DNA of 64,000 nucleotides, taken from contig JBBTXY010000003.1 in NCBI GenBank assembly GCA_038062075.1, positions 17,589-81,588 on the forward strand, in the 5' to 3' direction. Positions 505 through 16,047 of this stretch are shown here, piece by piece. A model generated the notes under the pieces. That model saw only the letters and a program-made list of their open reading frames with translations. It searched no databases and was not told where the DNA came from. The stretch comes from Patescibacteria group bacterium (GTDB lineage: Bacteria > Patescibacteriota > Minisyncoccia > Phycocordibacterales > UBA2100). The number at the start of each line of letters is the position of its first letter. The stretch's first letter is position 1. Made by a program: the position numbers and the translations under genes.

Positions 505-1605
505 TCATTCTCCTGCCTTCGGACGGATTGAATGCATAATATCCCTAATCTGTTGTAAGCTTTTGAGAAAGTTCTCCGCTGAGTCGGTACTCTTGACCCC
601 TTCAGAAAAATCTTCGGGTTTGTATTTTGAGCGAAATATTTCGGAGAGCTTCCCATAAATACTTTCGTCTTCATGCCGACTGTACCCAAATCGCGATAAC
701 GCCTTGATCGAACCCCTATTCAAAACCATTTCCATTTCCTTTAAATAGCTTCGGTCACCGATCAAAAATTTTCTCGCATATTCTTTCCAGATGTCCATAC
801 ATGTAATGTCGGGATTGGTTTTCTCGCGGTTCTTTTTTACAAGGCCGATAATCATATAAAGCACGTGTCTGTAGTGTATATAAATACCATCTAGTAACTC
901 ATCGTCTATGGAACCATCTAAAATACCGCCTTGGATATTGAGTTCTTCAACAAACGCTTCCTCAAGTCCAGAAAAATAGCCTTTGATTTCTGGACGATTC
1001 CCACCAACCCTTTCTCGAACTATCTCTACACCGCCTCCACCTTGCACAAAGTCTTTATTGCTGGCGCTGTAAGCAACAAAATCGGTCTTGGTACGACTGT
1101 GCAAGAGTTCGTGGCTCATGTCATGAACAAGCTCACGGCGAGCGAATTCGCTTTTTTCATCACGTAAAACGATTTTGTTTTCCCGTCTGCGGTACATTCC
1201 GAATAAGGGCTGAATTTTGCCACTGTCTCTATCAAGGAGACCTTTCGCAAATACAATGCGAGGAACGGGTTCTTTGACTGATTCATCACGAGATACGCTG
1301 AGGTAGGAATAAATCTTGGCTACTCTCTGTTTCGCAATTTTAAATTGTTTCAGTTCTTCGGGCGTTGGTTCCCTTGACTCCACAAGTTCATCGGTGGGTG
1401 GAATATCCTTAAAGGCATTCAAAATTCTTTTTTTCTTGTCGGGGGACTCTGGCATCACAACAGTATAGAGCCGACAATCTATCCCTTCAATCAACCAAAC
1501 GGACCTCACACTTGAATACCTTTGCCCATCGGACAGCATGCTGTTTTTTCGGCTTAAAAGTGTTACAATCCAGCGGTTTCCAGCCGTAAAATATGAAGCT
1601 TCCAA
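505..1605 (-). CDS. Hypothetical protein with HExxH (HELLH) motif; lower GC than neighbours
   Basis: 366-aa ORF; AT-richer than flanking DNA; contains 'VHDMSHELLHS'. True start may be the internal ATG at 1539, because the divergent + gene starts at 1593. Confidence 0.45.
   Translation of the reverse strand: MEASYFTAGNRWIVTLLSRKNSMLSDGQRYSSVRSVWLIEGIDCRLYTVVMPESPDKKKRILNAFKDIPPTDELVESREPTPEELKQFKIAKQRVAKIYSYLSVSRDESVKEPVPRIVFAKGLLDRDSGKIQPLFGMYRRRENKIVLRDEKSEFARRELVHDMSHELLHSRTKTDFVAYSASNKDFVQGGGGVEIVRERVGGNRPEIKGYFSGLEEAFVEELNIQGGILDGSIDDELLDGIYIHYRHVLYMIIGLVKKNREKTNPDITCMDIWKEYARKFLIGDRSYLKEMEMVLNRGSIKALSRFGYSRHEDESIYGKLSEIFRSKYKPEDFSEGVKSTDSAENFLKSLQQIRDIMHSIRPKAGE
1561..1569 (+). promoter_or_regulatory. 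Extended -10 element TGTTACAAT upstream of GT2 gene
   Basis: TGnTAcAAT 24 nt upstream of ATG 1593; same motif upstream of 27640. Confidence 0.35.
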
Positions 1606-2390
1606 CCATCACCATAACTCTTATCGCGCGCAATGAAGCGCATAATCTCGACGCTTTTATCGAGACGATTGCGCCGATTGCCGATGAGCTTGTCGTCTGC
1701 TACACGCCATCGAGCGACGACACGCTCACGAGGCTCGAAGAATGGAAAGTGAAGACGTCGTATCCTGTCATCATATTCCAGTACGCGGATGTACCGTTCC
1801 ATTTCGGTAAATCACGCAATGAGACGATCAAGCGAGCGACCAAGGACTACATTTTTATGCTCGATGCCGATGAAAGGCTGACGCCCGCATTTTGTGCGCG
1901 CATCAAGCAATTTCTCGCGGAGAAACAGCCGAAGGCGGTCTCGATGCAGCGGCAGGACGACGTAACGCCGCATCTCATCGACCCGCAGACGCGCATCGTG
2001 AAAAACCACGAGCGTATTGTGTATGCGACGGATGTCGCAGGGCAGCTGCATGAGCACCTCGAATTGCCGGAGCCGGCGGTCTGGTTCGACGAGCCGTTCA
2101 TCCACAGCCAGGGGAAAGGTCATTGGGTCTATGACCACGATCGTCTGTTCATTCTTCTCGCGCGCGAGGTCGCACGAGGCGAAAACACCAAAGGGCTTTT
2201 CCGCGAGATCCTGCGCGCATTCGCGAGTTTCTTCTACAAGTTCCGCAAGGAATATATCCGCAAGCAAACGTACAAAGACGGAAAGATCGGCTTCAAGTAC
2301 GCATTCCTGCGTGGTTTCCATGCCTTCCTCATCCATATTTTCATCGGTCTCAAGCCGCGCGTTAAAGCTCATGTTGAAAATAACCACTAG
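1593..2390 (+). CDS. Glycosyltransferase family 2 (LPS-core KdtX/WaaE-like)
   Basis: N-terminal 'ITLIARNEAHNL...' GT-A fold, DADE (DxD) motif. Confidence 0.75.
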   Translation: MKLPTITITLIARNEAHNLDAFIETIAPIADELVVCYTPSSDDTLTRLEEWKVKTSYPVIIFQYADVPFHFGKSRNETIKRATKDYIFMLDADERLTPAFCARIKQFLAEKQPKAVSMQRQDDVTPHLIDPQTRIVKNHERIVYATDVAGQLHEHLELPEPAVWFDEPFIHSQGKGHWVYDHDRLFILLAREVARGENTKGLFREILRAFASFFYKFRKEYIRKQTYKDGKIGFKYAFLRGFHAFLIHIFIGLKPRVKAHVENNH

Positions 2391-3084
2391 CTGGGATGAC
2401 GGGGATGTTCTCGACGAACGCGTGATGCAGCTCCTCGAGAAGTATGGTCTCAAAGGGACGTTCTATATTCCGCGGGACTATTGGGGGGAACGGCTCTCAG
2501 ACGAGCGTATTCGTGAACTCTCCGAAAAGTTTGAGATAGGCGCCCACACGCTCACGCATGCCGATCTCACGAAACTTTCACTCGAGGAGGCGGAACGGGA
2601 GATCAGAGGAAGCAGAAAGTGGCTCGAAGAAGTGACCGGAAAACCCGTCGAGATATTCTGCTACCCGCGCGGACGGTATACGCCAGCGGTGCGGGAGCTG
2701 GTTACTAAAGCCAGATTTCGGGGCGCCCGTACGACGAAGCAATTCTCGCTTACAGTGGGGGATCCGTTCGAGATGGAAACGACCGTACACGTGTATCCTC
2801 TGCCAGTGCGTTTCAGTGCGGGAATACGACGAATATTTGGCCCCATCCGCGAGCGCTATCCCGGCTATCGCTCGCTTGGAGTCTCCATCTTTGATATGCG
2901 CAGTTTCGAATCCGCGGCGAAGGCGTCTTTCGATACTGCCCTAGCGCGCGGCGGCATCTTCCATCTCTGGGGGCACTCGTGGGAGATCGAAAAGTACGGA
3001 CTGTGGGAAGCGTTTGAGCGTGTGTGCGCATACATCGGCAACCGTGCGGATTGCAGATATGTGACGAATGCAGAACTCGTATGA
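2371..3084 (+). CDS. Polysaccharide deacetylase (CE4 / NodB homology domain)
   Basis: 'TTSWDDG' (TFDDG motif 1) plus 'HTLTH' His motif. Start at internal ATG 2371; upstream part of track ORF 2017.. overlaps the GT2 gene in another frame. Confidence 0.75.
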   Translation: MLKITTSWDDGDVLDERVMQLLEKYGLKGTFYIPRDYWGERLSDERIRELSEKFEIGAHTLTHADLTKLSLEEAEREIRGSRKWLEEVTGKPVEIFCYPRGRYTPAVRELVTKARFRGARTTKQFSLTVGDPFEMETTVHVYPLPVRFSAGIRRIFGPIRERYPGYRSLGVSIFDMRSFESAAKASFDTALARGGIFHLWGHSWEIEKYGLWEAFERVCAYIGNRADCRYVTNAELV

Positions 3085-4319
3085 AAATTCTCATTCTTCA
3101 AGACGATTTCCCGCCGCGCCACATCGGGGGCAGCGGATCTATCGCGTATGCCTTGGCGCAAGAACTCCGGAAGCGGGGCCATGAAGTCGAAGTGGTAACG
3201 GCGGTGCAGGATCGGGCGCTCGTTGGGGAGACGACATACGAGGGCATTCCCGTACACAACATCTTTGCGCCCTACTCGAAGCGCTTTAATGCATATACGT
3301 GCCTATGGAATCCGCCCGCGATCCGCGAGCTCACAAAAATTCTTGCTAATTTCAAGCCGGAGATTGTGCATGCGCACAGCGTGAACGGGTATCTCTCATA
3401 CGGCTCGCTCGTGATCGCGAAGAAAAGCGGCGCACGCGTCGTTCTCACGTGTCACGATGTCATGGCGTTCAACTACTCGAAGCTTACCGAATTCATAGAT
3501 CCCGACGACACGGCTGTCCACGAACGGTACGACTACCGCGTAAGTGCCTTCCGGCAACTGCGCGAATCCCGATTCCGCTACAATCCCTTCAGGAATATCG
3601 TCATTAGGCATATCCTGCACAACTACGTTGATGTTCTGACGGCGGTCTCCGATGCTCTGCGGCAGGCGCTCGAAGATAATGGCGTCCCAGGTGCCGTCGT
3701 CATCCATAACGGGATAGATGTTGCCGAATGGAAAGAAAATCCGGCACGCGATCGCGCGTTCAAGGAAAGGCACGGGCTCGGCGATTCCGTGATTCTTTTC
3801 GGCGGTCGCATTTCCGGCATTAAGGGAACGGATAAGATCCTCGACGCGCTCGCGCGAGTGCGCACGCAGGTGCCTGACGTCCAGCTTCTCGTTATAGCAA
3901 AAGAGGGCGAATCGCTCGACCGGATGCGGGCGCTGGCGAAAGAGCGCGCTGTCGCAGAGGCGCTCGTTGCGCCCGGCTGGCTTTCAGGGGATGATCTGAA
4001 AGCTACGTATCATGCGAGCGCTGTTGTCGCAGTTCCCACGCTCTCGTTCGATTCCTTCCCGACGATGAATCTTGAAGCCTTCGCATGCACAAAGCCGGTC
4101 GTCGCCACCTGCTTCGGCGGCTCGCGAGAGTTGGTCGAAGATGACATTTCGGGTTACATCGTGAATCCGTATAATGTGCCGATGCTCGCTGAAAAAATAA
4201 CCGATCTTTTGTCCGACAAAAGCAAGGCGGAGCGATTTGGAGAAAAGGGCCTTGAGCGCGTCGCGAGAGAATTCACGCTTGAAAAGCAAGCCGAGGGGTT
4301 TGAGAAGCTATACCGATAG
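3081..4319 (+). CDS. Glycosyltransferase family 4
   Basis: ATGA start/stop overlap with upstream gene; GT4 N-domain 'MKILILQDDFPPRHIGGSG', C-domain 'E..E' motif. Confidence 0.8.
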   Translation: MKILILQDDFPPRHIGGSGSIAYALAQELRKRGHEVEVVTAVQDRALVGETTYEGIPVHNIFAPYSKRFNAYTCLWNPPAIRELTKILANFKPEIVHAHSVNGYLSYGSLVIAKKSGARVVLTCHDVMAFNYSKLTEFIDPDDTAVHERYDYRVSAFRQLRESRFRYNPFRNIVIRHILHNYVDVLTAVSDALRQALEDNGVPGAVVIHNGIDVAEWKENPARDRAFKERHGLGDSVILFGGRISGIKGTDKILDALARVRTQVPDVQLLVIAKEGESLDRMRALAKERAVAEALVAPGWLSGDDLKATYHASAVVAVPTLSFDSFPTMNLEAFACTKPVVATCFGGSRELVEDDISGYIVNPYNVPMLAEKITDLLSDKSKAERFGEKGLERVAREFTLEKQAEGFEKLYR

Positions 4320-4322
4320 ACC

Positions 4323-5492
4323 ATGTTCACCATTTTTGCCAACATGTTCATAAACTCGGAGGAGCGCTTCGAGCACCTGAAGGATTCGTTCGAATCGTTC
4401 AGTACCGTGAGCGATGATTGGCTCATCAATATCCGAGGAAGATTTCGTGAACCTGTCATCGCCTGGCTTAAGGAGCGTCTCGGTGATAGAGCGACCTTTT
4501 TCGAACTCCTCGACGATTCGCGCGGCTGGACCGTGAATTCACTGGACATGGTTCGGCACGCCAGACACCCGTATGTCTTGTTCTGGCTGGAAGATCATAT
4601 GAATATCGCTCCGCAGTCGTATCTGCGCGATGTAGTCGAGGAGATGGCGGAGCACAAAGCCGACTACCTCCAGCATTCGTGGTGGCAGAACGGAAAATAC
4701 AGGCACTATTTTGACATCTTTGACCGACAACAGGGCACATCGATCGACACAGTCACCATTGGATATAACGAGTGGAAGAAGTGGCAAGACGCTGGCGACA
4801 ACGTGCAAATCATCTCTCTTCTCGGTATTTTCGAGAAGCATTTTCTCATCAAGATGCTGCAGTACGATCGCTTTATGCTTCCCATGTCGGTTAGGTCGTG
4901 GATTTTTCGCATCATGACTTTGTTGCAGCGGATGGGCCTGCGTTTCGATCAAAAGAAATGGTATCACCGGATCAATCGCTTGCTGCATTTCAAGATCCGC
5001 AGGCAACCGAAGGAAACCCCGCACGATTTCGAGAAAGAGCCGAATCGTTTTGACGTTCTTCCGATCCGGACTTCGGTTCCGCACCGCGAATTGTTCGCGT
5101 GCATGGATGATGATGACGATCCGGCGTGGAGGTCGTCTTTGATGACGCGCGGTCTCTACCCCTTGCGGGATCGCCTCGTGCGGTGGGACGAAAAAAAGCA
5201 GCCTGCGAAGCATTCACGCACCATCGCGGCGCTTAAGAAGGGCGCGTCGCTCCGGGAAGCGTACTGCTACTACAGCGCGAAAGGGGTGCGCCACGTGCTT
5301 TCTCGCGAATATATCCGCGTCGCGCGTGGGCGCGTCCGGGTTGCGGTGAAAGACGAACATGTCGAGCTGGGGGCGGGAGAAGGAGCCGCATTTTTCACCA
5401 ACATTCTACACGACATCGTCGCACTCGAAGACGCGGAGATCGAGCGATTCACGCCTGCAATCGGGCTTGCCCCGCACTATCTCCTGACGTAG
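4323..5492 (+). CDS. Hypothetical protein in glycan operon (no recognised domain)
   Basis: 389-aa ORF, tightly packed in operon; Trp/His-rich, no family recognised by eye. Confidence 0.5.
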   Translation: MFTIFANMFINSEERFEHLKDSFESFSTVSDDWLINIRGRFREPVIAWLKERLGDRATFFELLDDSRGWTVNSLDMVRHARHPYVLFWLEDHMNIAPQSYLRDVVEEMAEHKADYLQHSWWQNGKYRHYFDIFDRQQGTSIDTVTIGYNEWKKWQDAGDNVQIISLLGIFEKHFLIKMLQYDRFMLPMSVRSWIFRIMTLLQRMGLRFDQKKWYHRINRLLHFKIRRQPKETPHDFEKEPNRFDVLPIRTSVPHRELFACMDDDDDPAWRSSLMTRGLYPLRDRLVRWDEKKQPAKHSRTIAALKKGASLREAYCYYSAKGVRHVLSREYIRVARGRVRVAVKDEHVELGAGEGAAFFTNILHDIVALEDAEIERFTPAIGLAPHYLLT

Positions 5493-5501
5493 CATGGGCT
5501 G

Positions 5502-6044
5502 ATGACCGTATCGAAGGGCAAAAAGCCCAAGCATTTCATCCTTGACGTGGACGGTGTCATGACCGACGGCCAGTTTTATTACTCTGCCGAGGGGAAGGCG
5601 ATGAAGGCGTTCGGGCCGGATGACCATGATGGGCTTCTCTTATTGAAGCCCTATATCAACATCCATATCGTGACCGGCGACAAGAAGGGATTTCCGATAA
5701 CCAGGAAGCGTATTGCTGACGATATGAAGATGAAGCTCGACGTAGTGAGCACGGTTGAGCGGCTGCAGTGGATGAAGGAAAGCGGGTATGAGCTCGATGA
5801 GACGATCTACATGGGAGATGGCATTTTTGACGCCGTCGTCTTCGATAAAGTGGCGTATGCAATCGCGCCCGCGAATGCGTTCTACCTCACCAAAGAGCGC
5901 GCTGATTTTGTGACGCGATCCGTTGGCGGCGACAGCGCCGTTGCGGAAGCATGCGTGCACATTCTTGAGAAATTCTTCACGCCGTTCGACCCCCTCCACT
6001 TCAAGCTCGAGAAGTCGAGCGGCGAGTGGGGCGCACACGCATAA
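5502..6044 (+). CDS. HAD-IIIA phosphatase, KdsC/YrbI family (KDO-8-P / sialic-acid-9-P phosphatase-like)
   Basis: 'LDVDGVMTDG' motif I; typical KdsC length of 180 aa. Confidence 0.7.
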   Translation: MTVSKGKKPKHFILDVDGVMTDGQFYYSAEGKAMKAFGPDDHDGLLLLKPYINIHIVTGDKKGFPITRKRIADDMKMKLDVVSTVERLQWMKESGYELDETIYMGDGIFDAVVFDKVAYAIAPANAFYLTKERADFVTRSVGGDSAVAEACVHILEKFFTPFDPLHFKLEKSSGEWGAHA

Positions 6045-6046
6045 CT

Positions 6047-7621
6047 ATGAAGCACAAAGTCTGCATTCTCGCGGCAGGAGTGGGGAATCGGATGGGCGAG
6101 CTCTCCGAGCACGTCAATATCGCCGTCTTGCCCGTCAACAACAAAGCGGTGATTTCCTACATCATCGAGAAGTTCCCGATGCAGACCGAGTTTGTGATCG
6201 CGGTCGGCCACAAGAAAGAGACCGTCATCGACTATTTGAAACTTGCGCATCCCGAGCGAAGATTCACCTTCGTGCACGTCGACAAATACACCGGTCCGGG
6301 CACGGGCCCCGGGTACAGTATCCTGAAGTGCGAGAAGCACCTCCGGGAGCCCTTTATATTCTTTACGGCCGATACCATGGTCTTGGAGGATATTCCTCCG
6401 CCGGATCAGAACTGGATGGGAATCGCGCCGGTCAAGGAAACCGAGCTTTACTGCACGGTCCGCATGAGGAACAACCTCATCGTCCAGCTCGACAACAAGA
6501 TAAAGACCGACAACAAATTCGCTTTTATCGGGCTCGGCGGGGTGAAGGACTATGAAGATTTCTTCAGCGTGCTCACGCATGACCAGGAAATCCAGAAAGG
6601 CGAAGTGCAGGTCGTGACCGGATTTGCGCGCCTCATTGAAAAGAAACTCGTGCCCATAGGCTTCACGTGGTTTGACACCGGCTCCTTTAAGAACTACGCG
6701 GACACCAACCGCAACTTCTCCGGCGGCGGCACAAAATTCGATTTCAGCAAGGGCGATGAATTTCTGTATTTTGTGAACGGTCGTGTCATCAAGTTTTTTG
6801 CTGACGCGAAGACAGCGAAGAACCGCTATGAGCGCGCCACAAAACACCTGAAAGGTCTCGCGCCAAAAATGGAAGCGCACCGCGGCAATTTCTATTCGTA
6901 CAAACTCGTCGAAGGGCAGACGCTCTACAGCATGCTGAACGCGCGGCTCGTCAGGGAATTTCTCGCGTGGGCGTCCAAGCATCTGTGGAAACCGCTCAAG
7001 CTCGACGCGAAGAAGAAAAAAGAATTCGCCGCCGCGAGCAGGCGCTTTTATCGCGACAAAACGCTCGAGCGCGTCGAGGCATATCAGAAAAAAGTCGGGG
7101 AAGGAGAACGAGCAATCATCAATGGCCTCGAAGTGCCGCCGATTGCCGAGCTCCTCGGTAAGGTTGACTGGGACACGATGTCGGAGAGTATCCCCGTTCC
7201 CTTCCACGGCGATCTGCAGTTCGACAACGTTCTCTACGTGGGCGCAAAGAAAGGGCGGCATCCGTTCGTTCTTTTGGACTGGCGTCAGGATTTCGGCGGC
7301 CTCATCCACGCCGGCGACCTCTACTACGACCTCGCCAAGCTCTACGGCGGAGTGACGATGTCCTACCCCTTGATCAAAGAAGGCATGTTCACCTACACGG
7401 GCACGGACACCTCGGCCGACTACAAATTCTTCATCAAGAGCGATCTTCTGGAAGCCAAGGACGAGCTGGAAGATTTCATTCTCGCCAACAAGTACGACCT
7501 CAAAAAAATCCGGACGCTGACCGCGCTCATATTTCTCAACATGGCGCCCCTCCACCACGACCCGTTTGACCGGCTGTTGTACCACCACGGACGCTCGATG
7601 CTCCACAAAGCACTGAAGTGA
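6047..7621 (+). CDS. Bifunctional sugar-1-P nucleotidyltransferase (N) :: APH/choline-kinase-like kinase (C)
   Basis: N-terminal 'ILAAGVGNRMG' NTP_transferase P-loop; C-terminal 'HGDLQFDNVLY' Brenner kinase motif and 'DWRQD'. Same architecture as LicC-LicA and MurU-AmgK systems. Confidence 0.7.
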   Translation: MKHKVCILAAGVGNRMGELSEHVNIAVLPVNNKAVISYIIEKFPMQTEFVIAVGHKKETVIDYLKLAHPERRFTFVHVDKYTGPGTGPGYSILKCEKHLREPFIFFTADTMVLEDIPPPDQNWMGIAPVKETELYCTVRMRNNLIVQLDNKIKTDNKFAFIGLGGVKDYEDFFSVLTHDQEIQKGEVQVVTGFARLIEKKLVPIGFTWFDTGSFKNYADTNRNFSGGGTKFDFSKGDEFLYFVNGRVIKFFADAKTAKNRYERATKHLKGLAPKMEAHRGNFYSYKLVEGQTLYSMLNARLVREFLAWASKHLWKPLKLDAKKKKEFAAASRRFYRDKTLERVEAYQKKVGEGERAIINGLEVPPIAELLGKVDWDTMSESIPVPFHGDLQFDNVLYVGAKKGRHPFVLLDWRQDFGGLIHAGDLYYDLAKLYGGVTMSYPLIKEGMFTYTGTDTSADYKFFIKSDLLEAKDELEDFILANKYDLKKIRTLTALIFLNMAPLHHDPFDRLLYHHGRSMLHKALK

Positions 7622-7623
7622 GT

Positions 7624-8631
7624 ATGAGCCACGCGTTCAATGCACGCTTGGGCATTGGCCCGATGAGCACCGAAGCCATCGAGGCGACCTTTCACTATTC
7701 GCATTTCTACCGCAAAGAGCTGATGCTCATCGCGTCGAAAAATCAGATCGACTGGGGCGGCGGCTACGTCAACAACTGGACGACGAGGGACTATATAGAT
7801 TTCGTGCGTGCGATGCGTGCGAAATATCCTTTGGCCAACGTCCACGTGTGCCGCGATCACTGCGGGCCGGGATTCAACGGCATCCACGATTTGAAGGATG
7901 TCTACAAGACGATCGAAGACGACATCGCAAGCGGCTTCGATCTCATCCATATTGATTTCTGCCATTTTCTCGGCACCAAAGACGAGCAGTTCGACGAATC
8001 GAGACGGGCGATCAAGCACTGCCTCATGCTCAATCCGAAGATACGCATCGAGGTCGGTACCGACGAGAATATCGGTGTCACGTACGGTCTGCCGAACATT
8101 AACGAGCTTGAAAGGGAGATTGATTTCTTCAGAAGCGTCTGCGATCCGGAGTTCTACGTTGTCCAGACCGGCTCCTTGGTCTTGGAGACGCATCAGGCAG
8201 GCTCGTTCAACACGCCGTTCGTCGAGAAAATGTCCCTGCTCCTGCGTGAGAAGGGTATCAAAATGAAAGAGCACAATGCGGACTATCTCACGGAAGATGA
8301 CATTCTCCTCCGAAAGGGCCTTGTCGGCGCGATGAACATCGCGCCGCAACTTGGCGTGATTCAGACGCACTACATTCTTTCTAAATGCGCGGTGTATGGA
8401 CTCGACTCATCGGAATTTCTCAATAAAGTCTACGAGTCAGGCAAATGGAAGAAGTGGCTGAAGGATAACACTGCCGAGAACAAGATGCTCTGCTGTACGA
8501 TAGCGGGCCACTACCTCTTTGCTTCGGATGAGTACCGGCGTCTTGTTGATAAACTGGAGCGGTACGAAGATGTGCGGGAAGCTATCACGAACGAGCTTGC
8601 AAAGCTCATTGATCACTATGTTGCGCGGTAA
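7624..8631 (+). CDS. GatZ/KbaZ-family protein (tagatose-bisphosphate aldolase accessory / sugar-phosphate 4-epimerase family)
   Basis: 'LIASKNQIDWGGGYVNNWTTRDYIDFV...VCRDHCGP' resembles the GatZ 'ATSNQVNQFGGYTGMTP...GGDHLGP' block as recalled from memory. Confidence 0.55.
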   Translation: MSHAFNARLGIGPMSTEAIEATFHYSHFYRKELMLIASKNQIDWGGGYVNNWTTRDYIDFVRAMRAKYPLANVHVCRDHCGPGFNGIHDLKDVYKTIEDDIASGFDLIHIDFCHFLGTKDEQFDESRRAIKHCLMLNPKIRIEVGTDENIGVTYGLPNINELEREIDFFRSVCDPEFYVVQTGSLVLETHQAGSFNTPFVEKMSLLLREKGIKMKEHNADYLTEDDILLRKGLVGAMNIAPQLGVIQTHYILSKCAVYGLDSSEFLNKVYESGKWKKWLKDNTAENKMLCCTIAGHYLFASDEYRRLVDKLERYEDVREAITNELAKLIDHYVAR

Positions 8632-9331
8632 AACCATACTTATCACAGGCTCCTCCCGCGGTATCGGCGCCGCAACCGCGCGCCTCGCCAAAAAATACGG
8701 TGCGACTGTGATCCTACACGGGAAAGAGGATTCGAAAGAATTGAAGAAACTCTCCAAAGAGCTTGCCGCACAGTATGTTGTCTTTGATGTCGCAGACGAG
8801 CGCGCCGCTCGAAAGGCAATCGCGAAACGCGGCGTCGACATTCTGGTGAACAATGCGGGGATCAGCATCTCGAAGCCATTTCAGGAGCTCACGAGCAGGG
8901 ACTGGCATGAGACGCTTTCGACGAATGTCATGGGGGTCGTGAACGTCTCGAAAGCGGTTATTCCGGCGATGGTGAAAAGAAAGCACGGCACGATCGTCAA
9001 CGTCTCGTCAATAAAGGGGTACCCCCATACGGCCGGCCGTGCGGCCTTTGCCGCTTCGAAGGCCGCGATTATCACGCTTACGGCGAGCATGGCAAAAGAA
9101 TTCGCTCCGCAGATTCGCGTCAATGCCGTCGCTCCTGGATTCACGGAAACAGAGACGACGAAGAAAGCGTGGGGCGAGCGGATCTATACGCAGATCAGCA
9201 CAACGCCCTTAGGGAGAGCGGCACAGCCGGAGGAGATCGCACAAGCGATTCTCTTTCTCGCAAGCGACGCGTCAGCGTTCATGACGGGGCAGACGATGAT
9301 TGTTGATGGCGGATACAGTATCGCGGGGTAA
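8618..9331 (+). CDS. Short-chain dehydrogenase/reductase (FabG-like)
   Basis: 'TILITGSSRGIGAATA' Rossmann, 'NNAG', S-Y-K triad region; starts inside upstream gene end. Confidence 0.8.
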   Translation: MLRGKTILITGSSRGIGAATARLAKKYGATVILHGKEDSKELKKLSKELAAQYVVFDVADERAARKAIAKRGVDILVNNAGISISKPFQELTSRDWHETLSTNVMGVVNVSKAVIPAMVKRKHGTIVNVSSIKGYPHTAGRAAFAASKAAIITLTASMAKEFAPQIRVNAVAPGFTETETTKKAWGERIYTQISTTPLGRAAQPEEIAQAILFLASDASAFMTGQTMIVDGGYSIAG

Positions 9332-9340
9332 TATACCGGT

Positions 9341-9811
9341 ATGGATCGGAAAAAATGGAGTCAGGAGGAAAAAGATGTTAAGCTTGTCGCGAAGCCGTGG
9401 GGTAACGGCACGATTGGCGGCGTGGAAGGGGTTGGAGAACTGTGGCTCAATTACAAACGCGGGGAGAACGTGGGCGATGAAGAGAAGCGCTATGTGTTCA
9501 AGAAACTCTACATCAAGAAGGGAACCAAGACGAGCTTCCAATATCATATAAATAAATTGGAGACGAATCACCTCATCAGCGGTCTGGCAGAAGGACACAT
9601 GGAAAATGACAACGGAGAGATGGAGAAGAGTATTTTCGGGCCTGGTGATTCGTGGACTATTCCCTGCGGCAAAAAACATCGTCTCATCGCGCTTGAGGAT
9701 ATGGTCATGTTGGAAGCTTCGACGCCGGAAGTGGATGATGTGGTGCGCATCGCAGATGACACAGGTCGTGGAGACGGCCGCATCGAAAGCGAGCACCAAA
9801 AGGGAAACTGA
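9341..9811 (+). CDS. Cupin-fold protein, type-II phosphomannose-isomerase C-domain-like
   Basis: 'KPWG...ELW' and 'GPGDSWTIPCGKKHRL' cupin motifs. Confidence 0.6.
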   Translation: MDRKKWSQEEKDVKLVAKPWGNGTIGGVEGVGELWLNYKRGENVGDEEKRYVFKKLYIKKGTKTSFQYHINKLETNHLISGLAEGHMENDNGEMEKSIFGPGDSWTIPCGKKHRLIALEDMVMLEASTPEVDDVVRIADDTGRGDGRIESEHQKGN

Positions 9812-9812
9812 T

Positions 9813-10730
9813 ATGGCTGAAACACTCCAACAAAAAGAGCCGTCACTCGTAGAACGATTCAAAGAGATTGGTTTCGATGATCATGTGATGCTTGCGGCAC
9901 AAGGTGCCGCGCGACTGGGTGCGCGGCAGATATTGAAATTCCACGGTGCGAGTCAGGAGAAACTTCGAACGGAATTGAAGGCAGGCGATATGACTCCTGT
10001 TACGGCTGCGGATATTGCATCGGAAGAGGCGATTCTCAAAATCATAACGACTCGATTGTATTCTCCAGACGAAGTACATGCGGAGGAAAAAGGCCGCGCT
10101 GATACCGCTGAGCACAGTATTATGTGGTACGTTGATCCTCTGGATGGCACTCGGAGTTTTACGCGTGAACAAACAGCTTCCACTGTAGGTATCTGCATGT
10201 ATGAACACAACGAGCCACACACCGCAGTAATCTGTCGACCGTTCCAGTGTGAGCTATTACTCGCGGGTAAAGGAAGAGGCGCATTTGTATTTCCACTTGA
10301 CGACAAGCAGAAAATAATCGGTCCGGCAAAGCGCGTTCACGTAGCAGAGAGAAAAGATCTCACAGGTGGGATTTTCTATTGGGACGGCGTCATGACAGGA
10401 AAGAATGTCGATCGTGCCCTCAGGATGTTTGAAGGGGTGATAGCGGATACCGGAAAAACCGATTTCCGCGCGTTGGGGACGAATATAGGCGAGCAGGCCG
10501 AAGTTGCGCTCGGACACGGCGACTTAAAGTTAACGACCGGCGTCGGGGGATTCTACGATATCGCAGTGGGGGGGTTAATAATCCAGGAAGCCGGAGGGGA
10601 GGTTATTGATGAAAACGGCAAGCCGATAAGCCCGGGATCTAAAGCTGCGCTCTTTGGTAATCCGGAACTCATTAAAAAGTACGGCCCCTTGTTCCAACAG
10701 TGCTATGCGGGCTATGACGGTTTCGCTTAG
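9813..10730 (+). CDS. Inositol monophosphatase family protein (IMPase/FBPase/CysQ fold) paralogue 1
   Basis: 'WYVDPLDGTRSF' plus 'EE' metal-binding motifs. Confidence 0.8.
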   Translation: MAETLQQKEPSLVERFKEIGFDDHVMLAAQGAARLGARQILKFHGASQEKLRTELKAGDMTPVTAADIASEEAILKIITTRLYSPDEVHAEEKGRADTAEHSIMWYVDPLDGTRSFTREQTASTVGICMYEHNEPHTAVICRPFQCELLLAGKGRGAFVFPLDDKQKIIGPAKRVHVAERKDLTGGIFYWDGVMTGKNVDRALRMFEGVIADTGKTDFRALGTNIGEQAEVALGHGDLKLTTGVGGFYDIAVGGLIIQEAGGEVIDENGKPISPGSKAALFGNPELIKKYGPLFQQCYAGYDGFA

Positions 10731-10738
10731 AGCGCCCT

Positions 10739-11458
10739 ATGATCAACTATAAGGTTCTACTTCCGACATCTGGTACGGGTTCGCGACTGAAGGAAATAAC
10801 AAAAAATACCAATAAAGCATTAGTCTCTATTGCAGGAAAGCCTGCCATTGAATATATTCTTTCCTCTTATCCCAAAGAGGTACCAATAGTCGTCACGCTC
10901 GGGTACCTCGGAGAGAGCGTGAAAGCGTACCTCGAAAGCAATCACTCTGATCGGACATTCGAATTTGTGTGGGTTGATAAGTACGAAGGGCCCGGATCGA
11001 GCCTTGGCTATTCGATGCTGAAAGCAAAAGACAACCTCCAGTGCCCCTTCATCTTCCACGCCTGCGACGGCATCTTTGTGGAGCCTATCCCTACGCCGGA
11101 ATACAACTGGATAGGCGGATTTGTGGATGACTGGGAGACGACTAACTTGCCGCTTGAACAGTACCGGACACACACAATGAAGGACGGCGTGATACTCAAT
11201 CTCAATGACCGCGGAATTCCCGGATTTGATTCCATTCACATCGGCCTCGACGGCATCTTCGATTACAAAATCTATTGGGAGACCCTGCAGGCGATTTACG
11301 ATAAAGACCCGAACGACGCGCAAATATCCGATGTGCCCATTCTTGATGCGATGATACAAGCAGGCGTGCAATTCAAATGGATCCCCTACAAAGTCTGGCT
11401 CGACACGGGGAATATTCCCGCACTGCAGAGAACCACAGATTTTCTTTCTACTCAATAA
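10739..11458 (+). CDS. Sugar/alcohol-phosphate nucleotidyltransferase (LicC-like), paralogue of the N-domain of 6047-7621
   Basis: 'KVLLPTSGTGSRL'; 'FVWVDKYEGPGSSLGYSML..PFIFHACDGI' is collinear with 'FVHVDKYTGPGTGPGYSIL..PFIFFTADTM' in the fusion. Confidence 0.7.
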   Translation: MINYKVLLPTSGTGSRLKEITKNTNKALVSIAGKPAIEYILSSYPKEVPIVVTLGYLGESVKAYLESNHSDRTFEFVWVDKYEGPGSSLGYSMLKAKDNLQCPFIFHACDGIFVEPIPTPEYNWIGGFVDDWETTNLPLEQYRTHTMKDGVILNLNDRGIPGFDSIHIGLDGIFDYKIYWETLQAIYDKDPNDAQISDVPILDAMIQAGVQFKWIPYKVWLDTGNIPALQRTTDFLSTQ

Positions 11459-11464
11459 AGTAAG

Positions 11465-11488
11465 AAGCCCCGGTCCTTACCGGGGCTT
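11465..11488. terminator. Bidirectional hairpin terminator between convergent genes
   Basis: Perfect 9-bp stem AAGCCCCGG/CCGGGGCTT with 6-nt loop, directly after stop codon 11458. Confidence 0.5.
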
Positions 11489-11499
11489 CCACGTCACTG

Positions 11500-12186
11500 T
11501 CACTGAATGAGTTGTTCTCGCGCCCACGCGAGCAGTTCTATCGGCAGGTCAGGTTGAGGGTCGCTCCAACCCTTTCCCGGCCAGTCTGCTACACGCACAA
11601 ACTCGTTTAAAAGTTCTGCGCGATGCAGGGGGTTTTCTGCACACAAAGGATCATGCATACACACCACCTGATAGTCGGCAGAGAAACCTTTCTCATCCCG
11701 TGCGATTTTTGTGTGCACGGCATACACCCGCCGAGCACTCCTTGGGTGTACCACCAGAATGATCCGAGTATGTGGCAATCCAAGCCGCACGATCGTGTCT
11801 ATGCCGAAGCGGGAGTTTTCTGCCCCGTTCTTTGCTTTTGTCTCAAGGCGGATCACGTCGCAGGGTACACCGTGGTCAGCGACCAGCAGATTTCTTTGAT
11901 GTATCGCCTCGGAACCGGAAGCTCTGGATAGCTCGCCGGAGTCTTTGCCGATGCCGCCTGTAAGCAAGATCCAGTCGATCTTTCCCAGGCGGTACAGTTT
12001 GGCTGCCGCCCGCGCCACCTCCGCATCTTCCCTGCAGAAGACAAAAGCGCCATTGGCATATTGTACACGGGAGTCATCCGGGGGCAGGAGTCCCATACCC
12101 ATGTACAACGCAACCTGCTGAAGTTTCTCTGAGTCCTTCAAAGGACCCTCCTCTCTGTTCGCTCTTCGCTTCAGCAAGCGAAGCAC
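11500..12186 (-). CDS. DUF218 / YdcF(ElyC/SanA)-like envelope-associated protein
   Basis: 'WILLTGGIGKDSGELS..SEA...ETKAKNGAENS' DUF218 pattern. Confidence 0.55.
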   Translation of the reverse strand: MLRLLKRRANREEGPLKDSEKLQQVALYMGMGLLPPDDSRVQYANGAFVFCREDAEVARAAAKLYRLGKIDWILLTGGIGKDSGELSRASGSEAIHQRNLLVADHGVPCDVIRLETKAKNGAENSRFGIDTIVRLGLPHTRIILVVHPRSARRVYAVHTKIARDEKGFSADYQVVCMHDPLCAENPLHRAELLNEFVRVADWPGKGWSDPQPDLPIELLAWAREQLIQ

Positions 12187-12294
12187 GAGGAGAAAGCTTT
12201 GTCAATTGGAATGTAGCTGGGCGCAGGCGACATTACATGCGGCCGCGACAACGATCATGTCTGGTGGCTATCTTCGGGCAGAGGAAATATAGTA

Positions 12295-12333
12295 GGTAAA
12301 AAACAAACGGTCTCCCCAGCGGGCTGGGGAGAC
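12295..12333 (-). terminator. Rho-independent terminator for IMPase gene (minus strand)
   Basis: Perfect 10-bp stem GGTCTCCCCA/TGGGGAGACC; on minus strand followed by a T-run (GTTTGTTTTTT). Confidence 0.6.
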
Positions 12334-12351
12334 CGAAAGATCGTGTGCTCG

Positions 12352-13227
12352 CTAAACGCGCAACACCTTGTCGCATAGATAGTCGACGATTTGCGGTGAG
12401 TTGCCGGTAACGAGGACGTCATACGCGAGGACGTCAAGAGGGTCGCATTCGGTGAATGAAAAGAGCTCCTTCTTGAACGCCCGGCAGAATCCGCCTGCCT
12501 GCTCCACGAGCAGTGACCCGCAGACATCCCACGGGCCGCCGATTGCGAGCGTGAGCGATCCGGCGATGGAGCGAGCACCATTCGCGACGAGCGCCTGATG
12601 CAAGCCGTTCGAGCCCGGGAGCAGGATTTTCACCTCGCCGTTAAGCGAAGCAAAGAGCTTCGCAGTCTGCGCATCGGTGAGTATCTGCCGACCAGCGCGC
12701 TTAAAGCCATGCGAGACGTCGACGAGAATTGTCAGTTGCTCGTTGACCTCGCTCGTCCTCTTGCCGTCCCATTCGTTGCCGACTTGTATCGGGGCCGAGT
12801 TTTCTCCTGTGGCGAAATTGTGCCACAGAAGCTGGGTTAGCGTTATGTCGCTCGCTGACCATATCCGGCCGGTAGCCGGTTCGCCAATGACGCACCGTGT
12901 TACCTTATGTACATTGTGGTCGTACGTTGCCGCGATGACTGTTGATGTTGCCAATCCGATGGCGAAGGCTCGCGTGCCGTCCATCGGATCCACCAATATT
13001 TTGACTGGCGCATCCACCGTGTGTCGGTCGGACTCCTCGGCATGGATGTAGGTGCCGGGGATGCCTTGCAGAACCTCAAGCATTGCCGCTTGGCTCTGCT
13101 TGTCGGTCGGCGTCACTTGCGTGCCGTCCGTCTGCTTCACTGCGGTCGTGGTCGGCCGGCCTTGGTTGGCACGGACGACTTTCATGCCCGCGATCACTGC
13201 CGTCGTGAGACGGTCGAGCATCTCCAT
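12352..13227 (-). CDS. Inositol monophosphatase family protein paralogue 2
   Basis: 'ILVDPMDGTRAF' motif. Confidence 0.75.
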   Translation of the reverse strand: MEMLDRLTTAVIAGMKVVRANQGRPTTTAVKQTDGTQVTPTDKQSQAAMLEVLQGIPGTYIHAEESDRHTVDAPVKILVDPMDGTRAFAIGLATSTVIAATYDHNVHKVTRCVIGEPATGRIWSASDITLTQLLWHNFATGENSAPIQVGNEWDGKRTSEVNEQLTILVDVSHGFKRAGRQILTDAQTAKLFASLNGEVKILLPGSNGLHQALVANGARSIAGSLTLAIGGPWDVCGSLLVEQAGGFCRAFKKELFSFTECDPLDVLAYDVLVTGNSPQIVDYLCDKVLRV

Positions 13228-14278: not shown

Positions 14279-14310
14279 ACAAGCCCAGATCAAGGGAGTA
14301 CTCTGGCACA

Positions 14311-15303: not shown

Positions 15304-15305
15304 CT

Positions 15306-16040: not shown

Positions 16041-16047
16041 GGCAAAA

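What the first reader, a model, noticed from the sequence alone, without database searches (positions are those of the whole stretch)
7624..8631. GatZ/KbaZ-family protein embedded in a glycan operon, without a GatY/KbaY aldolase partner
GatZ-like proteins usually pair with a class II tagatose-bisphosphate aldolase. None is present in this window. Instead the gene is translationally coupled to a sugar kinase/transferase and an SDR. Some GatZ-family members act as hexose-6-phosphate 4-epimerases, so here it may create a C4-epimerised ketose-phosphate precursor for an unusual envelope sugar.
Basis: inference. Interest (0 to 1): 0.55.

Follow-up and report, generated by a model that had tools for sequence, protein, structure and literature searches.

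The report
Compact GatZ-like enzyme in sugar-activation module
The gene is real and encodes a shortened, probably catalytic relative of the GatZ sugar-phosphate epimerases; it is one part of a conserved, uncharacterised gene module that most likely builds and nucleotide-activates an unusual surface sugar, and the module occurs in tiny symbiotic bacteria, tiny archaea and many phages.

Summary
The ORF at 7624-8631 (+, 335 aa) is real. It is a remote, compact relative of GatZ/KbaZ. Pfam PF08013 gives E 1e-5 but 24.8 bits, just under the 26.7 cut-off. The AlphaFold model's best solved-structure match is GatZ (2fiq, TM 0.80). The Asp-His, His and Asp-Tyr active-site positions of GatZ are kept. No GatY-like aldolase is found in the 64-kb window or within 10 kb of 91 related loci.

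The gene is packed tightly into a glycan operon. Its constant partners are not the SDR. They are a fused nucleotidyltransferase/APH-like kinase (homologous to phage RB69 gp52:53, the AfhE type), a PMI-like cupin and a small phosphatase (usually KdsC-like). This core recurs in Patescibacteria, DPANN archaea and at least 173 IMG/VR viral contigs, and natural fusions link its parts.

Best reading: a metal-dependent ketose-phosphate 4-epimerase (or aldolase) feeds an isomerase, anomeric kinase, phosphatase and nucleotidyltransferase route to an unidentified NDP-sugar.

However, family membership is borderline, the SDR coupling is lineage-specific, and no activity is shown. I found no description of this module in the searchable literature.

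The parts
7624..8631 (+). Compact GatZ/KbaZ-like TIM-barrel protein ('GatZs', 335 aa). Proposed metal-dependent ketose-phosphate 4-epimerase or aldolase.
   Evidence: PF08013 E 1e-5 (24.8 bits, below cut-off). Foldseek best match 2fiq, TMq 0.80. Residues at least 90% conserved in 87 sequences include D78 H79 H109 D111 E143 E148 H217 D220 Y221 N238 P241 Q242.
6047..7621 (+). Fused sugar-1-phosphate nucleotidyltransferase (N-terminal, LicC/MurU-like) and APH-like sugar kinase (C-terminal). AfhE-type. The mechanical ORF starts at GTG 6026; the public gene call starts at ATG 6047.
   Evidence: NTP_transf_3 31 bits. APH E 0.006. Best PDB match is LicC 1jyk. The family HMM hits RB69 p053 (E 3e-7, HMM 6-108) and p052 (E 1e-11, HMM 268-458). 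G18xG20xR22 and H394-G-D396...N401, D418 are conserved.
5502..6044 (+). KdsC/YrbI-type HAD phosphatase (180 aa). Proposed to remove the distal phosphate of a sugar bisphosphate.
   Evidence: TIGR01670 E 2e-20. PDB KdsC 1j8d E 5.5e-17. D15xD17 and G105-D106..D110 motifs conserved. Found within 4.5 kb in 29/45 viral and 6/8 cellular loci.
9341..9811 (+). PMI-like cupin (156 aa). Proposed ketose-phosphate/aldose-phosphate isomerase.
   Evidence: Cupin_2 and MannoseP_isomer hits are weak here (E 6e-5, 2e-4) and stronger in orthologues (P0129 E 1.8e-11). Q67, H69, E74, H113 conserved in 56 sequences. Adjacent to GatZs in 44/45 viral and 8/8 cellular loci. Fused to GatZs in P0129.
8618..9331 (+). 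FabG-like classical SDR (237 aa). A lineage-specific extra redox step, not part of the core module.
   Evidence: adh_short_C2 E 2e-58. Its start overlaps the GatZs 3' end by 14 nt. Present only in the window, L005 and L001-3. Other loci carry an AroE-like dehydrogenase instead.
9756..10730 (+). Inositol-monophosphatase-family phosphatase (324 aa). Frequent but not universal neighbour.
10739..11458 (+). Second, stand-alone sugar-phosphate nucleotidyltransferase (239 aa). Frequent neighbour. It may instead belong to the adjacent heptose pathway.
   Evidence: 58-84% identical copies in L005, L007, L012 and L013.
4323..5492 (+). 389-aa protein with no significant domain match (sub-threshold cupin hit at the C-terminus), directly upstream of the module. 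Candidate dedicated transferase (speculative).
   Evidence: Conserved next to the module in L005 (60%) and L013 (37%). No Pfam, NCBIfam or PHROG family assigned.
1593..4319 (+). GT2 (1593-2390), polysaccharide deacetylase (2371-3084) and GT4 (3081-4319), in the same tightly packed + strand gene string.

Best explanation
The gene encodes a compact, catalytically competent member of the GatZ/KbaZ branch of the class II aldolase superfamily. It is the first enzyme of a conserved nucleotide-sugar module.

Proposed pathway:
1. GatZs uses a divalent metal held by His79, His217 and a beta5-loop carboxylate (E143, D147 or E148). Asp78 acts as base. It inverts C4 of a ketose omega-phosphate that has a free C1 hydroxyl, by retro-aldol/aldol chemistry. 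The simplest case is fructose-6-P to tagatose-6-P. Sedoheptulose-7-P or a pentulose-5-P are alternative substrates.
2. The PMI-like cupin isomerises the new ketose-phosphate to an aldose-phosphate.
3. The APH-like C-terminal domain of the 524-aa fusion protein phosphorylates the anomeric carbon.
4. The KdsC-like HAD phosphatase removes the distal phosphate.
5. The N-terminal nucleotidyltransferase domain makes the NDP-sugar.
6. The surrounding glycosyltransferases, flippase and polymerase place the sugar in an envelope glycan.

In this lineage an SDR adds an optional redox step.

Shown: homology, fold, residue conservation, gene order, co-occurrence, fusions, and homology of the fusion enzyme to RB69 gp52:53.

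Inferred: every catalytic activity, the order of steps, the substrate and the product.
For: **Fold and homology.**

**Active site.** GatZ D87/H88->D78/H79 and H257->H217. The HxxDY and x[IV][AG]P motifs are shared with GatZ and not with GatY (HGASG). This argues against a 1-phosphate site, that is, for a ketose with a free C1-OH, as with the F6P substrate of GatZ (inference from class II aldolase knowledge).

**Precedent for activity.** E. coli GatZ/KbaZ act as F6P 4-epimerases in vivo (PMC11907403).

**No aldolase partner.** None in the window and none within +-10 kb in 91 loci.

**Module conservation.** NT-kinase is present in 45/45 and the cupin in 44/45 viral loci with full flanks, and both in 8/8 cellular loci.

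**Rosetta-stone fusions.** NTase+APH+GatZs (P0195, 897 aa) and GatZs+PMI cupin (P0129).

**AfhE-type partner.** The NT-kinase family HMM hits RB69 p053 and p052 in the correct order. For the homologous enzymes of phage HY126, an isomerase -> 1-kinase -> HAD phosphatase -> pyrophosphorylase route to UDP-arabinose is reported (PMC13326640).

**Intact catalytic motifs.** They are conserved in all four families.

**Glycan context.**
Against: - No biochemical data exist for any member.
- PF08013 is below its gathering threshold, and three residues reported as GatZ-specific are not conserved (C20->S15, E44->I36, K279->N238). N238 matches true aldolases such as GatY N230, so aldolase rather than epimerase chemistry is possible.
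- The beta5-loop ligand is ambiguous. D147 aligns with GatZ E171 but is less than 90% conserved in the wide set, whereas E143 and E148 are conserved.
- The HAD is KdsC-like, a subfamily known for C8/C9 ulosonate phosphates. That fits a longer sugar better than a hexose.
- The order of the kinase and phosphatase steps is taken by analogy only.
- The whole genome could not be searched for a distant GatY.
Confidence: 0.55

Rival explanations
1. GatZs is a true carbon-carbon bond-forming aldolase, not an epimerase. It condenses a dihydroxyacetone-type donor with an aldose phosphate to make a longer or unusual ketose phosphate (heptulose, octulose or similar). That ketose phosphate is then isomerised, bis-phosphorylated, trimmed and nucleotide-activated by the same partners.
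For: - N238 aligns with the enediolate-stabilising Asn of true aldolases (GatY N230), not the Lys of GatZ. E44 and C20 of GatZ are also not kept.
- The phosphatase partner belongs to the KdsC/KDN-9-P family, whose known substrates are C8-C9 sugars.
- Epimerase chemistry itself passes through the aldol intermediates (PMC11907403).
- Class II aldolase relatives with novel long-chain substrates exist among the fold matches (YdjI 6ofu, sulfofructose-P aldolase 8q59).
Against: - The third His of the aldolase metal site is absent.
- The HGxSG phosphate-binding motif of DHAP-dependent aldolases is replaced by HNADY, as in GatZ. DHAP is therefore an unlikely donor, and free dihydroxyacetone is not a usual metabolite.
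- The best structural match is GatZ, not any aldolase.
Confidence: 0.25
2. It is what some databases name it: a non-catalytic chaperone subunit of a class II tagatose-bisphosphate aldolase, working in galactitol, tagatose or N-acetylgalactosamine catabolism with a GatY/KbaY encoded elsewhere.
For: NCBI names several family members 'class II D-tagatose-bisphosphate aldolase, non-catalytic subunit'. The best family hits are KbaZ and GatZ. More distant relatives do sit in catabolic-looking contexts: PfkB in L015 and PTS genes in the Listeria-like record.
Against: - No GatY-like ORF in the 64-kb window or within 10 kb of 91 loci, apart from weak self-hits of GatZs.
- No PTS or tagatose kinase beside it here.
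- Proposed catalytic residues are invariant.
- It is fused to biosynthetic enzymes.
- It is carried by phages together with the activation enzymes.
- Even E. coli GatZ is now reported to be an epimerase.
Confidence: 0.04
3. The module's product is not an envelope sugar. It is a donor for glycosylating DNA (as in the Afh arabinosyl-5-hydroxycytosine system) or virion proteins, at least in the phage copies. The cellular copies would then be acquired from phages or serve another acceptor.
For: - The closest characterised relative of the NT-kinase is from a phage DNA-hypermodification pathway.
- In L014 the module lies among replication genes: DnaB, primase, dGTP diphosphohydrolase-like, PDDEXK, DNA pol III alpha pieces.
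- 173 viral contigs carry the gene.
Against: - In the window and other cellular loci the module is embedded among GT2/GT4 transferases, a Wzx-type flippase, Wzy_C and PMT_2 enzymes.
- In most phage loci it also sits with GT2s, sugar methyltransferases and NDP-sugar SDRs.
- No thymidylate-synthase-like base hydroxylase was looked for or seen.
Confidence: 0.1
4. The Pfam resemblance is a chance hit on a spurious or unrelated ORF.
For: The PF08013 score is below the gathering threshold and covers only a third of the protein. PDB sequence hits are weak, E 0.02.
Against: - More than 2,400 homologues at about 60% identity across two domains of life, and 804 representative clusters.
- A confident AF2 model whose top five hits are all GatZ-family chains.
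- A bridging homologue passes PF08013 at 56 bits.
- Relatives P0195 and P0129 pass the threshold.
Confidence: 0.01

Closest known systems
E. coli GatZ / KbaZ (PF08013; PDB 2fiq) and the rhizobial homologue 3txv. From my own memory, not checked here, the Agrobacterium orthologue Atu3167 is a characterised tagatose-6-P 4-epimerase.
   Same: - Same fold, including the C-terminal helical part (TMq 0.75-0.80).
- Shared motifs: [ST]xNQ...GGY, DH, IH[IL]D and HxxDY.
- Two His plus a carboxylate instead of the three-His site of true aldolases.
- GatZ/KbaZ convert F6P to T6P in vivo.
   Different: - About 85 residues shorter (peripheral loops and a C-terminal insertion are missing).
- Only about 14% identity to 2fiq (18% to 3txv).
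- C20->S, E44->I and K279->N.
- Below the Pfam and NCBIfam cut-offs.
- No GatY/KbaY, PTS or kinase partners. The context is biosynthetic, not catabolic.
Phage Afh pathway for UDP-D-arabinofuranose: HY126 AfhE/AfhF; RB69 gp55 (API), gp52:53, gp51 (PMC13326640).
   Same: - A fused MurU/LicC-like nucleotidyltransferase and APH-like kinase of about 530-570 aa, homologous by HMM.
- A small HAD phosphatase.
- An upstream ketose-P/aldose-P isomerase.
- The same logic: isomerise, phosphorylate C1, remove the distal phosphate, nucleotidylate.
   Different: - The isomerase is a PMI-like cupin, not a SIS-type arabinose-5-P isomerase.
- The HAD is KdsC-like, not GmhB-like (the module's HAD HMM gave no hit in the 25-kb RB69 stretch searched, which includes gp51).
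- There is an extra GatZ-like enzyme upstream.
- The context here is envelope glycan synthesis in a cellular genome, not DNA modification.
- Similarity is too low for BLAST to detect.
GDP-D-glycero-alpha-D-manno-heptose pathway (GmhA, HddA, GmhB, HddC). Established knowledge; a copy lies in this window at about 14311-17294.
   Same: The same four-step logic: ketose-P isomerase, anomeric kinase, HAD phosphatase acting on a bisphosphate, nucleotidyltransferase.
   Different: Different enzyme families at two steps (cupin vs SIS isomerase; APH-like vs GHMP kinase). No epimerase or aldolase step precedes it.
AmgK/MurU and NahK-type anomeric sugar kinases with nucleotidyltransferases (established knowledge; MurU NCBIfam hits).
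   Same: An APH-fold kinase phosphorylating an anomeric hydroxyl, followed by a MurU-like nucleotidyltransferase.
   Different: Those are salvage enzymes for free amino sugars. They are encoded separately and have no aldolase-like, cupin or phosphatase partners.

Membership tests
GatZ/KbaZ-like (Pfam PF08013) | Score at or above Pfam's gathering threshold (26.7 bits) | tested here: not met
   24.8 bits, E 1.1e-5, aa 18-125 only. Relatives P0195 (32.5) and P0129 (30.4) pass. Many homologues carry a precomputed PF08013 hit.
GatZ/KbaZ equivalogs (NCBIfam NF012002 KbaZ, TIGR02810 agaZ_gatZ) | Score above the equivalog cut-off | tested here: not met
   26.3 vs 707 and 23.0 vs 568.8 bits. It is not an orthologue of GatZ or KbaZ.
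GatZ/KbaZ-like | Class II aldolase-type TIM barrel with the GatZ-type C-terminal helical extension; closest solved structures are GatZ-family | tested here: met
   AF2 pLDDT 89, pTM 0.90. Foldseek ranks 1-5 are 2fiq and 3txv, TMq 0.75-0.80; aldolases score 0.47-0.59.
GatZ/KbaZ-like | Proposed catalytic and metal residues Asp87, His88, Glu171, His257 (PMC11907403) | tested here: inconclusive
   D78, H79 and H217 are conserved. GatZ E171 aligns with D147 (variable in the wide set), with conserved E143 and E148 nearby. This comes from a MAFFT alignment, not a structural superposition.
GatZ/KbaZ-like | Residues reported to distinguish GatZ from aldolases: Cys20, Glu44, Lys279 (PMC11907403) | tested here: not met
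   S15, I36 and N238 in this family. N238 equals GatY N230.
GatZ/KbaZ-like | Genomic pairing with GatY/KbaY class II aldolase and PTS or kinase genes | tested here: not met
   No GatY-like ORF in the window or in the +-10 kb flanks of 91 loci. The rest of the genome is not available.
GatZ/KbaZ-like | F6P <-> T6P 4-epimerase activity | not testable with these tools
   Requires an enzyme assay.
Class II FBP/TBP aldolase (PF01116) | Three-histidine metal site and HGxSG / N-x-[DA]-T DHAP-phosphate site | tested here: not met
   No His at the GatY H180 position. HNADY replaces HGASG, and NIAPQ replaces NVATE. PF01116 was not reported for the window protein.
AfhE/AfhF-type sugar activation system | Fused N-terminal nucleotidyltransferase and C-terminal APH-like kinase homologous to RB69 gp52:53 | tested here: met
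   Pfam NTP_transf_3 plus APH. The family HMM hits RB69 p053 (E 3e-7) and p052 (E 1e-11) collinearly. Kinase and NTase motifs are conserved.
AfhE/AfhF-type sugar activation system | Adjacent HAD phosphatase | tested here: met
   A KdsC-like HAD lies 2 nt upstream. It is a different HAD subfamily from RB69 gp51 (no HMM hit).
AfhE/AfhF-type sugar activation system | SIS-type arabinose-5-P isomerase supplying the aldose phosphate | tested here: not met
   The conserved isomerase candidate is a PMI-like cupin. The only SIS protein nearby belongs to the separate heptose cluster.
AfhE/AfhF-type sugar activation system | Coupling to DNA base hydroxylation and glycosylation genes | not tested
   No search for thymidylate-synthase-like genes was made. 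The context here is envelope glycan genes.

The most novel reading that the evidence does not exclude
The core module (GatZ-like enzyme, PMI-like cupin, AfhE-type kinase/nucleotidyltransferase and a small phosphatase) is a previously undescribed, self-contained pathway. It turns a central ketose phosphate into a rare C4-inverted NDP-aldose, for example NDP-D-talose or NDP-galactose from F6P, or an NDP-D-glycero-D-talo/galacto-heptose from S7P. The module has spread horizontally between Patescibacteria, DPANN archaea and their phages. There it would set a surface (or virion or DNA) sugar that matters for episymbiont attachment or phage-host recognition.
Probability: 0.35. Interest if true: 0.75.

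Novelty: new variant of a known kind. Interest (0 to 1): 0.62.

Why it matters
**Function of GatZ proteins.** GatZ-type proteins were long filed as inert aldolase chaperones. This is a large, compact subfamily with more than 2,400 sequence clusters. It is about 60% identical between bacteria and archaea and never has an aldolase partner nearby. That would be a clean natural case of the catalytic (epimerase or aldolase) role, in biosynthesis rather than catabolism.

**A defined target.** The module is small and self-contained and starts from central metabolites, so it can be reconstituted in vitro. CPR bacteria and DPANN archaea live attached to hosts and depend on their surface glycans, which are almost unknown chemically. 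Here is a defined, testable route to one of their sugars.

**Phage carriage.** At least 173 viral contigs carry the module. This suggests the sugar is under selection in phage-host interactions. It also extends the recently described AfhE/AfhF activation logic well beyond arabinosylated DNA.

Tried and rejected
- **Sequence search of PDB** with the protein and with a 44-sequence profile gave only weak N-terminal hits (E 0.02 and 3.5e-4). The fold search was needed.
- **PHROGs** has no family for GatZs or for the 363-aa and 389-aa unknowns.
- **BFVD fold search** returned only generic TIM barrels at TM about 0.4.
- **The afdb50 fold library** was unavailable.
- **tblastn of the NT-kinase against phage genomes** did not reach RB69. 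Only the family HMM did. The module's HAD and cupin HMMs do not hit the RB69 cluster.
- **Genome-contig scan** with the single protein returned only 5 loci.
- **The listing of cluster members** gave no organism names for distant members.
- **Literature searches** for GatZ with Patescibacteria, phage, nucleotide sugar or talose found nothing on this family.
- **The two unknown neighbour families as homologues** (window 4323-5492 versus the 363-aa cluster): BLASTP found nothing and hhalign was not significant (E 0.057, probability about 1%). Rejected as unproven.
- **CDP-2-glycerol-type, CDP-alditol (TarIJ, CDP-glucitol) or inositol-phosphate (IPCT/DIPPS) routes.** I considered these because of the LicC-like NTase, SDR and IMPase. 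They are not favoured. The SDR and IMPase are not core, the cupin is PMI-like, and the kinase/NTase fusion is AfhE-type.
- **Window as phage.** Rejected: SecA and a long cellular glycan island are present.
Full report

An ORF runs from GTG 7618 / ATG 7624 to the stop at 8629-8631 on the + strand, giving 335 aa from the ATG. It is a real gene. The identical protein is on record from a Patescibacteria MAG. 2,417 clusters match at E <= 0.001, and the best 120 are all 321-342 aa and 59-100% identical. They come from Patescibacteria (Kaiserbacteria and others) and from DPANN archaea (Nanoarchaeota, Pacearchaeota, Diapherotrites). An exhaustive HMMER search of 1.84 billion representatives found 804 clusters at E <= 0.001, of which 154 are at <= 1e-30.

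**2. Is it GatZ/KbaZ-family?**

Only in the wide sense.
- PF08013 scores 24.8 bits (E 1.1e-5) against a gathering cut-off of 26.7. It aligns residues 18-125 to profile positions 26-138 of 420.
- The NCBIfam GatZ and KbaZ equivalogs are missed by a factor of about 25.
- Sequence searches of the PDB give only E 0.02 (single sequence) or 3.5e-4 (44-sequence profile), to 2fiq and 3txv.

Three further results settle homology.
- An AlphaFold2 model built on 44 homologues has pLDDT 89.2 and pTM 0.90.
- Its five best Foldseek matches in the PDB are the GatZ-family chains 2fiq and 3txv (TMq 0.75-0.80). Class II FBP/TBP aldolases, YdjI and sulfofructose-phosphate aldolase follow at 0.47-0.59.
- tblastn finds about 30% identity over about 90% of the query to a gene in Listeria-associated records (E about 1e-27). 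That gene encodes a 422-aa protein that passes PF08013 at 56 bits and sits in a PTS + HAD operon.

The window protein is therefore a compact, divergent branch of the GatZ/KbaZ-like family. It is about 85 aa shorter because peripheral loops and a C-terminal insertion are missing.

**3. Active site**

PMC11907403 reports that E. coli GatZ and KbaZ carry out F6P -> T6P 4-epimerisation in vivo, while FbaA, GatY and KbaY do not. It proposes Asp87 as base and a metal held by His88, Glu171 and His257. It names Cys20, Glu44 and Lys279 as GatZ-specific replacements of aldolase residues.

In a MAFFT alignment with E. coli GatZ and GatY:
- D87/H88 align with D78/H79, and H257 with H217.
- E171 aligns with D147 in the motif E143-V-G-T-D147-E148-N149.
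- C20, E44 and K279 correspond to S15, I36 and N238. N238 equals GatY N230.
- The GatY metal ligand H180 has no counterpart.
- The DHAP-phosphate motif HGASG of GatY reads HNADY here and HSTDY in GatZ.

Across 87 cellular and viral family members, D78, H79, H109, D111, E143, E148, H217, D220, Y221, N238, P241 and Q242 are at least 90% conserved.

My reading (inference) is as follows. This is an active metalloenzyme with a GatZ-type two-His-plus-carboxylate site. Like GatZ, it takes a ketose whose C1 hydroxyl is free. It retains one aldolase-like residue, so aldolase chemistry cannot be excluded.

**4. No aldolase partner**

phmmer with E. coli GatY against all 543 six-frame ORFs of the window finds nothing at E <= 10. 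GatZ finds only the target ORF. Among 1,681 ORFs in the +-10 kb flanks of 91 related loci, the only weak GatY hits are the GatZ-like proteins themselves. The rest of the MAG could not be searched.

**5. Context in the window**

The gene sits in a tightly packed + strand string:

| Coordinates | Product |
|---|---|
| 1593-2390 | GT2 |
| 2371-3084 | Polysaccharide deacetylase |
| 3081-4319 | GT4 |
| 4323-5492 | Unknown, 389 aa |
| 5502-6044 | KdsC-like HAD |
| 6047-7621 | Nucleotidyltransferase + APH-like kinase fusion |
| 7624-8631 | GatZ-like |
| 8618-9331 | FabG-like SDR |
| 9341-9811 | Cupin |
| 9756-10730 | IMPase-family phosphatase |
| 10739-11458 | Second nucleotidyltransferase |

The upstream stop is 2 nt before the ATG. 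The SDR start overlaps the 3' end by 14 nt. The remainder of the window is one long glycan island: UDP-glucose dehydrogenase, GFO/IDH/MocA, a Wzx-type flippase, two PMT_2 enzymes, a sugar C-methyltransferase and Wzy_C. It ends near SecA, so this is a cellular genome.

**6. What travels with the gene**

In nine distinct cellular loci from CPR and DPANN, the NT-kinase fusion lies immediately upstream and the cupin downstream. The KdsC-like HAD is usually just before them.

A scan of IMG/VR found 173 viral contigs encoding relatives at 34-45% identity. In the 80 retained loci the same genes recur in two orders: [cupin][NT-kinase][HAD][GatZ-like] or [small phosphatase][GatZ-like][cupin][NT-kinase].

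Counting only loci with at least 4.5 kb on both sides:

| Partner | Viral loci (of 45) | Cellular loci (of 8) |
|---|---|---|
| NT-kinase | 45 | 8 |
| Cupin | 44 | 8 |
| KdsC-like HAD | 29 | 6 |
| SDR | 0 | 2 |

A different 120-140-aa putative phosphatase precedes the gene in the other gene order. Several loci without the SDR carry an AroE-like dehydrogenase instead.

Natural fusions tie the parts together:
- P0195 (897 aa) is nucleotidyltransferase + APH + GatZ-like.
- P0129 (430 aa) is GatZ-like + PMI-type cupin.
- Others join the GatZ-like domain to a class I/II aminotransferase or to a GFO/IDH/MocA oxidoreductase.

Frequent further neighbours in phages are an unknown 363-aa protein (50 loci), NDP-sugar-type extended SDRs, sugar C- and O-methyltransferases, GT2s and a carbamoyltransferase. 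The viral nature of at least some contigs is supported by PolB, DnaB-type helicases, primase and PHROG matches.

**7. What the partners are**

- **Fusion protein.** It has an N-terminal LicC/MurU-like nucleotidyltransferase (NTP_transf_3; best PDB hit LicC 1jyk) and a C-terminal APH-like kinase with an HGDxxxxN Brenner motif. PMC13326640 describes RB69 gp52:53 and DLP3 gp82 as analogous to phage HY126 AfhE. It cites work showing AfhE to be a bifunctional D-arabinose-5-P kinase / UDP-arabinose pyrophosphorylase, with the HAD phosphatase AfhF converting the 1,5-bisphosphate to the 1-phosphate. A SIS isomerase supplies arabinose-5-P. An HMM of the 72-member NT-kinase family hits RB69 p053 (E 2.6e-7, HMM 6-108) and p052 (E 1.1e-11, HMM 268-458) collinearly, in a database of 154 RB69 ORFs. 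The partner is therefore AfhE-type, although BLAST cannot see the relationship.
- **Cupin.** It keeps Q67, H69, E74 and H113. I recall this as the metal-ligand pattern of phosphomannose isomerases. Its orthologues hit Pfam MannoseP_isomer.
- **HAD.** It is of the KdsC/KDN-9-P type, with intact DxD and GDxxxD motifs.

**8. Most likely mechanism**

1. The GatZ-like enzyme epimerises C4 of a ketose omega-phosphate, or less likely builds one by aldol condensation.
2. The cupin isomerises it to the aldose phosphate.
3. The kinase domain phosphorylates C1.
4. The HAD removes the distal phosphate.
5. The nucleotidyltransferase domain makes the NDP-sugar.
6. The neighbouring transferases use it.

If the substrate is F6P and the cupin keeps PMI stereochemistry, the product would be an NDP-D-talose (or NDP-galactose). 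From S7P it would be a D-glycero-D-talo/galacto-heptose. These assignments are inference only. The KdsC-like phosphatase hints at a longer sugar.

The corrections are that the SDR is accessory, the family assignment is borderline, and the real unit is a widely distributed core module.

**9. Comparison with the known, and novelty**

In function it resembles GatZ/KbaZ (or the rhizobial tagatose-6-P 4-epimerases), placed in front of an AfhE/AfhF- or GDP-heptose-like activation route. It is not an orthologue of GatZ or KbaZ, not a class II aldolase, and not the Afh system: the isomerase and HAD families differ, there is an extra enzyme, and the context differs.

I found no paper describing this subfamily or module. 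PHROGs and BFVD have nothing for it. I rate it a new variant of a known kind. It is of moderate-to-high interest because of its breadth (CPR, DPANN, phages), its testability, and its bearing on the catalytic role of GatZ-type proteins.

**10. Limits**

- No activity, substrate or product is shown.
- The residue correspondences rest on a sequence alignment and a predicted model whose coordinates I could not inspect.
- The whole genome was not available.
- 'Viral' labels are those of IMG/VR.

Noticed in passing
window 13364-17294 (+): A canonical-looking GDP-heptose-type cluster lies just downstream: extended SDR/epimerase (13364-14278), GHMP kinase (14311-15303), transaldolase/FSA family (15306-16040), SIS_2 GmhA-like isomerase (16030-16710) and a HAD phosphatase (16686-17294). 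The island therefore encodes two parallel 'isomerase-kinase-phosphatase-NTase' routes built from different enzyme families. The stand-alone NTase at 10739-11458 may belong to this one.
   Followed up: partly
window 9756-10730 (+), 12352-13227 (-), 18566-19552 (-): Three inositol-monophosphatase-family paralogues lie within 10 kb. L005 has two in tandem, and L001-3 and L011 have one next to the module. For the first one the best NCBIfam hit is HisN histidinol-phosphatase, far below cut-off. Their substrate is unknown.
   Followed up: no
window 4323-5492 (+); L062:1485-2573 and 49 other loci: Two families of about 360-410-aa proteins with no Pfam, NCBIfam or PHROG assignment flank the module. 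The window's 389-aa protein is also in L005 and L013. A 363-aa family occurs in 45 viral and 5 cellular loci, usually right after the GatZ-like gene. hhalign between them is not significant (E 0.057), but it lines up an N-terminal motif and a 'DH' motif. They are candidate dedicated glycosyltransferases.
   Followed up: partly
L014 (Logan SRR14739666 contig), 1-17023: A phage-like contig carries the module ([small phosphatase][GatZ-like][cupin][NT-kinase][TylF methyltransferase]...[Caps_synth-type GT]). It lies between a PHP/DNA_pol3_alpha gene and a DNA_pol3_finger/HHH_6 gene, next to DnaB, primase, a dGTP-diphosphohydrolase-like gene and a PD-(D/E)XK nuclease. The glycan genes appear to lie inside or between pieces of the replicative polymerase gene.
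   Followed up: no
P0239 (685 aa), P0202 (636 aa), P0195 (897 aa), P0129 (430 aa): Natural fusions exist between the GatZ-like domain and a class I/II aminotransferase, a GFO/IDH/MocA oxidoreductase, the NTase-kinase, or the PMI cupin. The aminotransferase and oxidoreductase fusions suggest that in some lineages the keto group of the product is aminated or reduced directly.
   Followed up: partly
L015 (P0247, 29% identity) and L097 6929-8197: More distant relatives sit in catabolic-looking contexts: next to a PfkB kinase with ECF sigma/FecR genes (L015), or as a full-length 422-aa GatZ-like gene in a PTS EIIA/EIIC + PRD regulator + HAD operon (L097). The L097 record is labelled Listeria phage but is marked UNVERIFIED_ORG, and the stretch examined shows only cellular-type genes.
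   Followed up: partly
L001-L003 (Nanoarchaeota), 2967-6217: Beside the module there is a HAD-nucleotidyltransferase fusion (475-523 aa), an IMPase and a divergently oriented PfkB kinase. Several B12-binding radical SAM genes are nearby. These also recur in L004 and L011.
   Followed up: no
window 1-2000 and 60001-62000: Two stretches have lower G+C (0.488 and 0.468, against about 0.54 elsewhere). The first contains a - strand ORF (505-1605, 344-366 aa) with no family hit, lying between glycosyltransferase genes. No tRNA gene was found anywhere in the 64 kb.
   Followed up: no
window 20314-55658: The glycan island continues for more than 35 kb: UDP-glucose dehydrogenase (20314-21618), GFO/IDH/MocA (21615-22604), Wzx-type flippase (26266-27549, -), two PMT_2/ArnT-like GT-C enzymes (31392-32777 and 35336-36793, -), a sugar C-methyltransferase (38839-40197), a flavin amine-oxidase-like protein (41246-42685) and a Wzy_C + TPR protein (53403-55658). 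SecA follows at 56256-58799.
   Followed up: partly
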